From the IMG/VR virus record IMGVR_UViG_2541047910_000001: 8,624 nucleotides of DNA; one strand, 5' to 3'. A program made the translations under genes and the position numbers. Every line of letters starts with the position of its first letter. Position 1 is the stretch's first letter. This document shows, one piece after another, positions 7,468 through 8,624 of the stretch. A model generated the notes under the pieces. It was not told the DNA's origin and searched no databases. It saw nothing but the letters and a program-made list of their open reading frames with translations. The stretch is from a virus (taxonomy: Monodnaviria > Loebvirae > Hofneiviricota > Faserviricetes > Tubulavirales > Inoviridae).

Positions 7468-8262
7468 ATGAAGCCAGAAAAAGCTATCGAGATATTAAAA
7501 AGACAACGGGAGCAAATCCCAGCAATACAAAATGAACGAAGGAGTACAGGAAATAACCCAAGTTTTAACTTATGGCAAAGAAACACTAAGACCGCCATAT
7601 CAAAAATATTTGGTGAAGAGTCAGATCACAAAAAAGAATTTGGCTCAATTCGATACTCTTTAATGGCATTTGTTGGTGATACACCAGATTATGTTTTCGA
7701 TAACGCATTTTGTAGTGGTTTAGATGAAGCACATTCTCTTCTTACGTCTATGATTGCTGAGATTGAAGAATATGGAATTGACGGAAATTTCATAGAGACA
7801 AAAAATGATCCCGTAGCTCTTGTTGAACTAATTTGCCATCAATTTCATAAGGTTGCAAGACAGCTACAGCAACGACACGATAATAGACAAACCATTGAAA
7901 TAAATGACGAATATGACGTTCAGGATTTATTTCATGCTCTTTTGAAGATTCATTTCGAGGATGTCAGACCAGAAGAATATACGCCAAGCTATGCAGGATC
8001 TTCAACACGAGTTGACTTCTTGTTAAAGAATGAAAAAATCATTATCGAGTTAAAGAAAACGAGAAAAAATCTCAAGCAAAAAGAAGTTGGTGAGCAATTA
8101 ATTGTTGATATAGCTCATTATCAAACGCATCCTGATTGCGAAACTTTAGTGTGTTTTGTATATGACCCTGAAGGTAGAATTGCCAATCCAATTGGTGTGG
8201 AGAATGACCTTGAGCGTTGTACAAATTCAATTTCGGTAAAAGTAATAATCTCACCAAAATAA
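7468..8262 (+). CDS. Hypothetical protein with C-terminal PD-(D/E)xK nuclease-fold motif; candidate defence or toxin nuclease
   Basis: Good SD (gaggaaag) upstream; helical N-terminal region, then motif block EYDVQDLFHALL ... STRVDFLLKNEKIIIELKK (D183 at 8014-8016, E194 at 8047-8049, K196 at 8053-8055) ... QLIVDIAHY, the classic restriction-endonuclease-like D-x(n)-E-x-K arrangement; gene is markedly AT-rich. Confidence 0.6.
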   Translation: MKPEKAIEILKRQREQIPAIQNERRSTGNNPSFNLWQRNTKTAISKIFGEESDHKKEFGSIRYSLMAFVGDTPDYVFDNAFCSGLDEAHSLLTSMIAEIEEYGIDGNFIETKNDPVALVELICHQFHKVARQLQQRHDNRQTIEINDEYDVQDLFHALLKIHFEDVRPEEYTPSYAGSSTRVDFLLKNEKIIIELKKTRKNLKQKEVGEQLIVDIAHYQTHPDCETLVCFVYDPEGRIANPIGVENDLERCTNSISVKVIISPK

Positions 8263-8272
8263 AAGGACATAT

Positions 8273-8539
8273 ATGGCTACTGTAGATGATGTTGCACAAT
8301 GGATGAAATCAGAGCTGGAAAACACAAACTGGCTATATCAAGAAACTGTTGTATATAAAATAAAAGAGTTATTTGGCGATACTTTCGTATATTTGAATGC
8401 TAATGGAAATTTATCCATTGATAAAAAAGTATTAGCGAAGTTTAGAAAGCTAACTAATGACACGGTTATATGGGAGAGAGGTGAAAAAGCATGGCGAAAA
8501 AGACAAGGTTATGATGCCCCTGGTCGACAGCAGGACTAA
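8273..8539 (+). CDS. Small hypothetical protein co-transcribed with the nuclease-fold protein; possible partner, immunity or antitoxin component
   Basis: 88-aa ORF starting 10 nt after the upstream stop, with AAGGA 5 nt before the ATG; basic C-terminus (KAWRKRQGYDAPGRQQD); same AT-rich composition; followed by the terminator. Confidence 0.55.
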   Translation: MATVDDVAQWMKSELENTNWLYQETVVYKIKELFGDTFVYLNANGNLSIDKKVLAKFRKLTNDTVIWERGEKAWRKRQGYDAPGRQQD

Positions 8540-8545
8540 ATAATT

Positions 8546-8572
8546 GGTTCGCACAATGACGTTATGCTAAAG
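8546..8572 (+). other. Degenerate dif-like sequence (XerC-arm-like, 5-nt spacer, XerD-arm-like)
   Basis: ggttcgcacaa matches GGTGCGCATAA at 9/11 and ttatgctaaag matches TTATGTTAAAT at 9/11, but the spacer tgacg is 5 nt rather than the canonical 6. Confidence 0.3.
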
Positions 8573-8573
8573 A

Positions 8574-8609
8574 GGCCGCTGCGGGATTCGATTTTCGCAG
8601 CGGCCTTTT
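8574..8609 (+). terminator. Rho-independent terminator of the plus-strand accessory operon, embedded in a longer imperfect inverted repeat
   Basis: Perfect 10-bp GC-rich stem ggccgctgcg/cgcagcggcc (8574-8583 and 8596-8605), 12-nt loop, then TTTT (8606-8609). The repeat extends to 22 nt per arm (8562-8583 vs 8596-8617, 19/22 matching). Confidence 0.65.
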
Positions 8610-8624
8610 CAACATAACGAGTCG

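What the first reader, a model, noticed from the sequence alone, without database searches (positions are those of the whole stretch)
8546..8624. Right-end long imperfect hairpin with XerD-arm-like inverted repeats: candidate attP-type structure
The terminator stem is part of a 22-nt-per-arm inverted repeat, and each arm begins with a sequence close to the dif XerD arm (ttatgctaaag, and ttatgttgaaa on the opposite strand); a XerC-arm-like ggttcgcacaa lies just upstream. CTXphi-type phages form their functional attP by folding single-stranded DNA into a forked hairpin built from two inverted dif-like sites. The window also ends 7 nt after the second XerD-arm-like element, mirroring the cut inside dif at the left edge.
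Basis: partly seen in the sequence, partly recalled or inferred. Interest (0 to 1): 0.6.

Follow-up and report, generated by a model that had tools for sequence, protein, structure and literature searches.

The report
Folded dif-like attachment site of CUS-1/Ypf phage
The hairpin at the right end of the window is one half of the attachment site that a CUS-1/Ypf-type filamentous prophage most likely folds from its single-stranded DNA so that the host XerC/XerD enzymes insert it at the chromosomal dif site. This cholera-phage-like mechanism has already been proposed for this phage family.

Summary
It describes a feature already in the literature.

- **What the window is:** one unit of a CUS-1/Ypfφ-family inovirus prophage, inserted precisely in E. 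coli dif beside hipBA.
- **The two sites:** the circularised unit carries exactly two composite dif-like sites (0.009 expected by chance).
  - attP2-like, + strand, 8546-8572: GGTTCGCACAA-TGACG-TTATGCTAAAG.
  - attP1-like, − strand, spanning the circle junction (window 15→1 then 8624→8607): GGTGCGCATAA-TGTACGACTCG-TTATGTTGAAA.
- **Arrangement:** the sites are inverted and 34 nt apart, around a GC-rich stem-loop that also looks like a bidirectional terminator.
- **Fold:** on the − strand (the strand that codes Rep and the coat proteins) they fold into a ~100-nt hairpin (−31.2 kcal/mol, z −6.7). It has a XerC-arm duplex, an 11/5-nt asymmetric central loop and a XerD-arm duplex. CTXφ has the same plan, with 12- and 7-nt centrals.
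- **Crossover:** it lies within GGTGCGCATAATGTA, which includes the XerC cleavage position. attP2 stays intact inside the prophage.
- **Relatives:** they keep the architecture, including with unrelated sequence.
- **Literature:** Ypfφ and CUS-1φ are already listed as CTX-type. The 84-nt module is 100% identical to Ypfφ.

Corrections: the relevant strand is the minus strand, and the full site also needs window 1-18.

The parts
8546..8572 (+). attP2-like dif-like site: XerC-like arm GGTTCGCACAA (8546-8556), 5-nt central TGACG (8557-8561), XerD-like arm TTATGCTAAAG (8562-8572). On the minus strand it reads CTTTAGCATAA-CGTCA-TTGTGCGAACC and forms the 3' (bottom) strand of the folded attP(+).
   Evidence: stays intact inside the prophage in all loci
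8573..8606 (.). Hairpin tip: an 11-bp GC-rich stem (AGGCCGCTGCG / CGCAGCGGCCT on the minus strand) with a 12-nt loop. It is the 34-nt spacer between attP1 and attP2. It also looks like a bidirectional intrinsic terminator between the two convergent gene modules.
   Evidence: RNA folds -30 (+) and -27.1 (-) kcal/mol; not flagged by the terminator scan, whose loop limit is 8 nt
8607..8624 (-). attP1-like site, first part. XerD-like arm TTATGTTGAAA (8617->8607) and the phage-specific 7 nt of the central region, CGACTCG (8624->8618).
1..15 (-). attP1-like site, second part (across the circle or tandem junction). XerC arm GGTGCGCATAA (15->5) and TGTA (4->1), the first 4 nt of the central region, identical to dif. 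This 15-nt stretch is the direct repeat bounding the prophage and contains the inferred XerC cleavage and crossover point.
   Evidence: Y. pestis junctions narrow the crossover to between XerC-arm position 6 and central position 5
16..18 (-). 3-nt extension of the outer stem (ATT on the minus strand), pairing with AAT (the complement of window 8543-8545).
   Evidence: pairs 3-5 with 101-103, partly conserved
8543..8545 (-). Partner of the 3-nt stem extension. The conserved att module begins at about 8541, directly after the stop codon of the DUF6953 gene (8539).

Best explanation
The feature is the attachment site of a CUS-1/Ypfphi-family filamentous phage of the CTXphi type, seen here in its integrated, split form. 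SHOWN: the circular unit has two inverted dif-like sites 34 nt apart. attP1 has an over-long 11-nt central region and attP2 a 5-nt one. The prophage sits precisely in E. coli dif, and the crossover lies within GGTGCGCATAATGTA of attP1. One end carries the hybrid site (chromosomal XerC arm - TGTACGACTCG - phage XerD arm) followed by intact attP2. The other end carries a regenerated perfect dif. No integrase is encoded. PREDICTED in silico: the window's minus strand folds the two sites into a ~100-nt hairpin. Its stem offers a XerC-binding duplex (GGTGCGCATAA/TTGTGCGAACC) and a XerD-binding duplex (TTATGTTGAAA/CTTTAGCATAA). These are separated by an asymmetric internal loop, 11 nt on top and 5 nt on the bottom, with 2 bp closed at each side. 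That this strand is the packaged (+) strand is itself inferred from gene polarity, not shown. INFERRED by analogy with CTXphi: XerC cuts the top strand after GGTGCGCATAA and exchanges it with the dif top strand. The TGT(A) shared with the dif central region TGTATA stabilises the exchange. XerD cannot exchange, because the bottom central CGTCA does not match the dif bottom strand TATACA. Replication then converts the pseudo-Holliday junction into the prophage. In duplex form neither site is a usable Xer substrate, so integration is essentially irreversible, and new phage DNA comes from rolling-circle replication across tandem copies. The hairpin tip doubles as a bidirectional terminator for the convergent structural and accessory gene modules.
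For: Composite dif-like sites: 2 found, 0.009 expected. The flank holds a perfect XerC arm and the 15-nt direct repeat. The joined flanks are contiguous at 100% identity in prophage-free E. coli such as Nissle 1917 and ATCC 11775. ssDNA fold of the 135-nt junction: -31.2 kcal/mol, z -6.7, 0 of 200 shuffles as good. Rep (G2P), G5P, coat B, DUF2523, Zot and secretin are all on the minus strand, and no recombinase is present. The circularised junction sequence occurs in nature as the inter-copy junction of tandem Ypfphi in Y. pestis. There the chromosomal junction carries the Y. pestis XerC arm GGTGCACATAA and the inter-copy junction the phage arm GGTGCGCATAA, which places the crossover around the XerC cleavage site. 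The architecture is conserved in 14 distinct sequences: 92.3% of cells paired, 6 pairs with changes on both sides, 0 of 500 shuffles as good. It is also conserved in sequence-unrelated att types (L003, L004, L030, L005), which fold to the same plan with z -5.7 to -8.8. TGT at the 5' end of the top central region is invariant. The bottom central region never matches dif. CTXphi shows the same plan, with 12-nt and 7-nt centrals. [quoted passage not shown]
Against: No experiment on this phage's attP was found in the papers read, and the Ypfphi review calls the mechanism 'proposed'. Folding energies do not favour one strand: -31.2 (minus) versus -31.4 (plus) kcal/mol. The strand assignment therefore rests on gene polarity and on where the crossover lies. 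Most sequences in the alignment are nearly identical (92% mean column identity), so covariation power is small and much of it comes from one Brenneria sequence. The junctions alone cannot distinguish a folded-ssDNA substrate from a duplex attP1 substrate.
Confidence: 0.85

Rival explanations
1. It is only a strong (bidirectional) intrinsic terminator between convergent operons, and the dif-like arms are chance resemblances.
For: The GC-rich stem is flanked by A and T tracts, with RNA folds of -30 and -27.1 kcal/mol. It lies directly after the stop codon of the last + strand gene (8539), at the convergence point of the two gene modules. Single dif arms at <=2 mismatches are no more frequent than chance.
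Against: Two complete composite sites occur where 0.009 are expected. The prophage boundary falls exactly inside attP1. Relatives with unrelated tip sequences keep the flanking XerC/XerD arms and the asymmetric central loop. A terminator role is compatible with the attP role but cannot be the whole explanation.
Confidence: 0.03
2. The duplex attP2-like site at 8546-8572 is the functional attP, recombining with dif as double-stranded DNA (VGJphi-type, reversible).
For: It is the only site in the window with a near-normal layout: 11-nt arms with 2 mismatches each and a short spacer.
Against: attP2 is unbroken and lies 50 nt inside the prophage in every locus examined, so the crossover is in attP1. 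Its spacer is 5 nt instead of 6-7 and shares only TG with the dif central region TGTATA. VGJ-type phages carry a single dif-like site (PMC4246890), whereas this phage has an inverted pair.
Confidence: 0.02
3. Duplex attP1 (11-bp central region) in the replicative form, not a folded single strand, recombines with dif by XerC-only strand exchange.
For: It would give the same junction sequences as those observed, so sequence data alone cannot separate it from the folded model.
Against: For CTXphi, neither attP1 nor attP2 is suitable as a duplex, because of the extended central region or incompatible bases (PMC4246890). This model does not explain why an inverted attP2 partner with compensatory changes and a conserved asymmetric loop is kept next to attP1 in divergent relatives.
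Confidence: 0.07
4. The long hairpin is (also) the packaging signal or minus-strand origin, like the imperfect hairpin downstream of gene IV in Ff phages, which also terminates transcription (Ff detail from my own knowledge).
For: Its position on the (+) strand, downstream of the secretin (gene IV) module, and its dual terminator character resemble the Ff packaging signal. The att module (8541-8624 plus about 1-210) is conserved across mosaic relatives whose neighbouring genes differ.
Against: Nothing in the sequence requires this role. Other candidate cis elements exist: structured non-coding DNA at window 16-180 on the minus strand (z -3.0), a conserved inverted repeat at 6907-6935, and an inverted repeat at 6330-6386. 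It would be an added function and would not replace attP.
Confidence: 0.15

Closest known systems
CTXphi attP(+) of Vibrio cholerae (folded ssDNA attachment site; Val et al. 2005, as summarised in PMC3089051 and PMC4246890)
   Same: Two inverted dif-like sites lie between convergent modules of an integrase-less inovirus. attP1 has an over-long central region (12 nt in CTXphi, 11 nt here) and attP2 a short one (5-7 nt in CTXphi, 5 nt here). The first bases after the XerC arm match dif (TGT), and there is no match on the XerD side. The prophage has the hybrid site plus attP2 at one end and a regenerated dif at the other, and tandem arrays occur. Both even share G at XerD-arm position 8 of attP1 opposite A in attP2, giving a G.T wobble.
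   Different: The spacer between the sites is 34 nt (one stem-loop) instead of about 90 nt (forked), so the hairpin is about 100 nt rather than about 150 nt. The arms match the enterobacterial dif rather than the Vibrio dif. The Rep is a G2P-type protein. The mechanism has not been demonstrated experimentally for this phage.
Ypfphi (Yersinia pestis) and CUS-1phi (E. coli O18:K1:H7) prophages
   Same: Window 214-6958 is 99.6% identical and window 8541-8624 is 100% identical to the Y. pestis prophage. Both insert at dif and regenerate dif at the 3' end. The att-adjacent accessory ORFs differ from those of Ypfphi, as the literature describes for CUS-1.
   Different: This copy lacks about 877 bp present in all close relatives: the YPO2280a/2281-like ORFs and the secretin C-terminus. 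The CUS-1 record itself could not be retrieved for direct comparison.
VGJphi-type and TLCphi-type IMEXs
   Same: They also use host XerCD and insert at dif.
   Different: They carry a single duplex attP. VGJphi uses XerC exchange and is reversible. TLCphi has a degenerate XerD arm and uses XerD-first exchange. This phage instead has an inverted pair of sites, with the crossover in the long-spacer site.

Membership tests
CTX-type IMEX attP(+) | Integrase-less filamentous phage or IMEX integrated at the chromosomal dif site | tested here: met
   Inovirus gene set and no recombinase. A perfect dif abuts the prophage next to hipBA. The empty site is contiguous in other E. coli genomes.
CTX-type IMEX attP(+) | Two dif-like sites in inverted orientation, close together, in the circular genome | tested here: met
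   attP1 (minus strand, across the junction) and attP2 (8546-8572, plus strand) lie 34 nt apart. Two composite sites were found against 0.009 expected.
CTX-type IMEX attP(+) | attP1 has an over-long central region (12 bp in CTXphi) and attP2 a 5-7 bp central region, so neither is usable as a duplex | tested here: met
   The spacers are 11 nt and 5 nt; the CTXphi values come. That the duplex forms are unusable is inferred, not tested.
CTX-type IMEX attP(+) | The (+) ssDNA folds so that attP1 and attP2 pair into XerC- and XerD-binding duplexes around an unpaired central region | tested here: met
   This is an in silico result only. The MFE is -31.2 kcal/mol with z -6.7. Across relatives 92% of cells are paired, with compensatory changes. 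Divergent att types fold the same way. The opposite strand folds equally well, so strand specificity is not shown by energy.
CTX-type IMEX attP(+) | The bases next to the XerC arm can pair with the dif central region, and there is no homology on the XerD side | tested here: met
   The top central region starts with TGTA against dif TGTATA, and TGT is invariant in all variants. The bottom central regions CGTCA, CGTTA, TCTGCA and AGTGCA do not match the dif bottom strand TATACA.
CTX-type IMEX attP(+) | Prophage structure: hybrid non-functional site plus intact attP2 at the 5' end, and a regenerated functional dif at the 3' end | tested here: met
   L001 coordinates 12487-12519 and 12426-12452 versus 2988-3015. 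The same structure occurs in L010, L031, L034 and L046.
CTX-type IMEX attP(+) | Integration uses the (+) ssDNA and needs XerC but not XerD catalysis; replication resolves the pseudo-Holliday junction | not testable with these tools
   This requires in vivo or in vitro recombination assays. The literature calls it 'proposed' for Ypfphi.
CTX-type IMEX attP(+) | Tandem prophage arrays that allow rolling-circle production of phage DNA | tested here: inconclusive
   Tandem copies are seen in relatives: Y. pestis L002, L005, L037 and L019. The window itself is a single unit, and D8 holds one copy.
VGJ-type IMEX | A single duplex dif-like attP at which the crossover occurs, leaving two recombinable sites around the prophage | tested here: not met
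   There are two inverted sites. The near-normal one, attP2, is not at the crossover.

The most novel reading that the evidence does not exclude
The ~100-nt hairpin may be a compact, portable, multi-purpose module that is attP(+), bidirectional terminator and possibly packaging signal at once. It appears to be exchanged intact between otherwise mosaic inovirus backbones: it is 100% identical in Ypfphi although the neighbouring cargo is replaced. Its G.T wobble pairs in the XerD arm exist only on the (+) strand and are conserved across sequence-unrelated att types and in CTXphi. These wobbles could be a functional requirement, for example to weaken the duplex or cruciform form or to disable XerD. 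Truncated relics of the module, next to an STM4504-family cargo gene, also sit at hundreds of places on E. coli ColV-type plasmids.
Probability: 0.2. Interest if true: 0.45.

Novelty: already known. Interest (0 to 1): 0.25.

Why it matters
The finding identifies the window as a complete unit of a CUS-1/Ypfφ-type dif-integrated filamentous prophage, and it explains the odd window edges as cuts inside dif. It gives base-level anatomy for an attachment site that the literature describes only in outline for this family. It also provides comparative support, from about 15 sequence variants and 4 unrelated att types, that the CTXφ single-strand integration design is general in enterobacterial inoviruses. 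These phages affect the fitness of extraintestinal E. coli and Y. pestis and carry variable cargo; here the cargo includes a DpnII/MboI-type nuclease-domain protein. The mechanism itself is not new.

Tried and rejected
- **Phage collection:** a megablast of the whole window against the GenBank phage collection gave no match. Ypfφ and CUS-1 are evidently not held there as separate records.
- **Rfam:** a scan of the window gave no family.
- **Terminator scan:** the promoter/terminator scan did not flag the hairpin, because its loop limit is 8 nt. I folded the RNA instead.
- **Strand asymmetry:** I looked for an energetic difference between the strands and found none (−31.2 vs −31.4 kcal/mol). 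The (+) strand has 3 wobbles and 2 mismatches where the opposite strand has 1 wobble and 4 mismatches, but the DNA energy model does not reflect this. I do not use energy as evidence for the strand.
- **Single-arm matches to dif:** these are at chance level, so only the composite test is informative.
- **Primary papers:** Gonzalez 2002 (PMC135385) and Val 2005 (DOI) are not held. What they say is cited second-hand through the reviews.
- **UPφ phages (PMC7307601):** these turned out to be a different, IKe/I2-2-like group. The paper was useful only for its remark that prophage repeats match the first 15 bases of dif.
- **Window's 877-bp deletion:** I looked for its junction in complete E. coli genomes and in IMG/VR relatives and did not find it.
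- **Recurring weak composite hit:** TGTTTGCATAA-N11-TTGTTTTAAAT appears in many relatives. I left it aside and did not examine it. It needs the loose threshold of 3 mismatches per arm, and it has no inverted partner and no prophage junction nearby.

Full report
**1. What the window is**

The window matches many E. coli chromosomes at 99.5-100% identity. In strain D8 (locus L001) the element lies beside hipBA.

The minus strand carries a complete inovirus set:
- Rep (G2P N- and C-terminal domains)
- G5P-like ssDNA-binding protein
- coat protein B
- a 570-aa adsorption-type protein
- DUF2523
- Zot (pI)
- a secretin (pIV)

The plus strand carries an HTH repressor-like gene and three accessory ORFs. 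No integrase is present.

Window 214-6958 is 99.6% identical to the Y. pestis prophage Ypfφ. The accessory ORFs at 6958-8540 are replaced there. The literature describes exactly this pattern for CUS-1 versus Ypfφ (PMC4266046).

**2. The observation**

The inverted repeat is real. Its arms are 8560-8583 and 8596-8619, 24 nt long, 88% complementary, with 12 nt between them.

- GGTTCGCACAA at 8546-8556
- TTATGCTAAAG at 8562-8572
- TTATGTTGAAA on the minus strand at 8617-8607

Each has 2 mismatches to the E. coli dif arms.

On their own, such arms are not above chance (13 found vs 8.8 expected; 5 vs 4.3). Complete composite sites are very different. A XerC arm, 4-13 nt, then a XerD arm occurs exactly twice in the circularised window. 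The expectation is 0.009, and none of 1000 simulations had two. The two sites are adjacent and inverted.

**3. The flank and the junctions**

In L001 the bases after the window end are TACATTATGCGCACC, identical to window 1-15. The window is therefore one prophage unit bounded by a 15-nt direct repeat. IMG/VR contigs L018 and L022 are cut in the same way.

On the minus strand, the prophage's 5' junction reads GGTGCGCATAA-TGTACGACTCG-TTATGTTGAAA. This is a perfect XerC arm, an 11-nt central region and a XerD-like arm. After 34 nt comes the intact inverted attP2.

The other end carries a perfect dif, GGTGCGCATAA-TGTATA-TTATGTTAAAT.

Joining the two chromosomal flanks gives a sequence that is contiguous at 100% identity in prophage-free strains such as Nissle 1917 and ATCC 11775. 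The insertion is therefore precise.

In Y. pestis the chromosomal junction keeps the host XerC arm GGTGCACATAA. The junction between tandem copies has the phage arm GGTGCGCATAA and is identical to the circularised window junction. This places the crossover between XerC-arm position 6 and central-region position 5, around the XerC cleavage position.

**4. The fold**

The 135-nt junction on the minus strand folds into one long hairpin of −31.2 kcal/mol (z −6.7). It consists of:
- A XerC-arm duplex, GGTGCGCATAA/TTGTGCGAACC: 9 Watson-Crick pairs, 1 G·T wobble and 1 mismatch.
- Two closing pairs on each side of an asymmetric internal loop. The central regions are 11 nt (top) and 5 nt (bottom).
- A XerD-arm duplex, TTATGTTGAAA/CTTTAGCATAA: 8 Watson-Crick pairs, 2 G·T wobbles and 1 mismatch.
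- An 11-bp GC-rich tip with a 12-nt loop.

The plus strand folds equally well (−31.4 kcal/mol), so energy does not pick the strand. The strand assignment rests on two things:
- **Gene polarity.** In Ff and CTXφ the packaged (+) strand has the sense of the replication and structural genes (established knowledge). Those genes are on the window's minus strand.
- **The crossover position.** It lies after the XerC arm of the minus-strand top site.

**5. Relatives**

Rep-based searches returned 7 genome loci and 39 IMG/VR loci. Wherever the region is present, attP1 is on the Rep-sense strand with a 9-11-nt central region. An inverted attP2 with a 5-6-nt central region follows.

Fourteen distinct sequences align at 92% mean column identity. 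On the proposed 40-pair structure:
- 92.3% of cells are paired.
- 6 pairs show changes on both sides; for example, XerD-arm position 7 is T-A here and A-T in Brenneria.
- No shuffle out of 500, and no slid register, reaches these values.

The power of this test is limited by the high similarity of the sequences.

More telling are four att types with largely different sequence: L004, L003 (Klebsiella spallanzanii), L030 and L005 (Brenneria). They fold to the same plan (z −5.7 to −8.8), with different tips. L004 has a forked tip, as CTXφ does.

In all variants the top central region begins with TGT, and the bottom central region never matches the dif bottom strand.

**6. Comparison with what is known**

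| | attP1 | attP2 | spacer between sites |
|---|---|---|---|
| CTXφ (El Tor) | AGTGCGTATTA-TGTGGCGCGGCA-TTATGTTGAGG | AATGCGTATTA-TACGCCA-TTATGTTACGG | about 90 nt |
| this window | GGTGCGCATAA-TGTACGACTCG-TTATGTTGAAA | GGTTCGCACAA-TGACG-TTATGCTAAAG | 34 nt |

The CTXφ sequences come from PMC3089051 Table II. For CTXφ, integration is fixed by pairing next to the XerC arm, and the absence of homology on the XerD side prevents XerD exchange (PMC4246890). The present site has the same design, in a more compact form.

The literature already says this for the family:
- Ypfφ and CUS-1φ are listed as related members of the CTX type.

Window 8541-8624 is 100% identical to Ypfφ. The feature is therefore already known as a proposal based on sequence. 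I found no experimental test of it for this family in the papers I could read.

**7. Rivals**

- **Terminator only.** The tip is a credible bidirectional terminator. This does not explain the composite sites, the junction position or the conservation.
- **Duplex attP2 (VGJ type).** This is contradicted, because attP2 is never split.
- **Duplex attP1.** Sequence data alone cannot exclude it. It is unlikely by analogy with CTXφ, and it does not explain why an inverted partner is maintained.
- **Added packaging-signal role.** This remains open. Other candidate cis elements exist.

**8. Verdict**

Novelty is "already known" and interest is low to moderate.

Noticed in passing
window ~214-218 (junction); L001 3218-4093 is the missing segment: The window lacks about 877 bp present in every close relative (E. 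coli D8, Y. pestis, IMG/VR L010 and L016). The deletion removes the YPO2280a/2281-like ORFs and the C-terminal third of the pIV secretin: the ORF at 181-1251 is 356 aa instead of 414 aa, and the Pfam Secretin domain is matched only over profile positions 2-111 of 169. No complete E. coli genome holds this junction contiguously. The copy is probably defective for virion secretion.
   Followed up: partly
E. coli plasmids, e.g. L048 4003-4071 and L049 4003-4077 (NZ_CP091535.1, NZ_CP082074.1): The 3' part of the hairpin (partial attP1 XerD arm, tip stem-loop and complete attP2) occurs at about 93% identity at about 475 places on E. coli plasmids. The two copies examined lie among IS fragments, one beside a MacB/TolC efflux pair and one near iss, so I take them to be ColV-type plasmids. 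In both it abuts the stop codon of an STM4504/CBY_0614-family gene. The same gene family (60% aa identity) is the att-adjacent cargo of related prophages L023, L024, L037 and L038. The plasmid copies therefore look like relics of a related phage's cargo end, without the attP1 XerC arm or central region.
   Followed up: partly
window 6889-6935 (inverted repeat 6907-6919 / 6923-6935): A roughly 46-nt stretch with a 13-nt-arm inverted repeat lies downstream of the repressor gene. It is conserved at 85-100% in relatives whose neighbouring DNA is unrelated (L003, L004, L005, L006). It is a candidate Rep nick site or ori(+), in a position analogous to CTXphi ig-1.
   Followed up: no
window 6330-6386: A 27-nt-arm inverted repeat (78% complementary) sits between the divergent rep and HTH-repressor genes, overlapping promoter-like hexamers on the minus strand. 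It is probably an operator/promoter region.
   Followed up: no
window 7468-8262 (+), 8273-8539 (+), 6978-7400 (+): These are the accessory cargo next to attP2. The 264-aa protein has a DpnII/MboI-type restriction-endonuclease domain (Pfam E 7e-59) and matches PADLOC 'Aga_Helical-REase' models. It is followed by a DUF6953 protein and preceded by a 140-aa protein of unknown function. This may be defence-type cargo, and Ypfphi has other ORFs in its place.
   Followed up: partly
window 16-180 (minus strand); conserved in L022, L018, L003: Non-coding DNA just 5' of attP1 on the phage (+) strand is conserved across mosaic relatives and folds into three hairpins (-25.8 kcal/mol, z -3.0). It is a candidate packaging signal or minus-strand origin.
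   Followed up: partly
L006 4811-4840: An additional dif-like site, AGTGCGCATAA-TGTGTTGA-ACATGTTAAAT, lies about 3.4 kb upstream of the CUS-1-like attP1 junction in a contig labelled 'Candidatus Nanosynbacter' MAG. This may be a second IMEX in an array. The MAG labels of L006 and of L004 ('Aerococcus') look like binning contamination by enterobacterial DNA.
   Followed up: no
XerD-arm positions 6 and 8 of attP1/attP2 (window 8612 and 8610 vs 8567 and 8569): The non-Watson-Crick positions of the XerD-arm duplex are G.T wobbles on the (+) strand in this window, in all the near-identical att variants tabulated, and in the sequence-unrelated type L004, where T.G becomes G.T at position 6. In L030 the second wobble is at position 9 instead, and L003 has mismatches there. 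The position-8 G(top)/A(attP2) arrangement is shared with CTXphi.
   Followed up: partly
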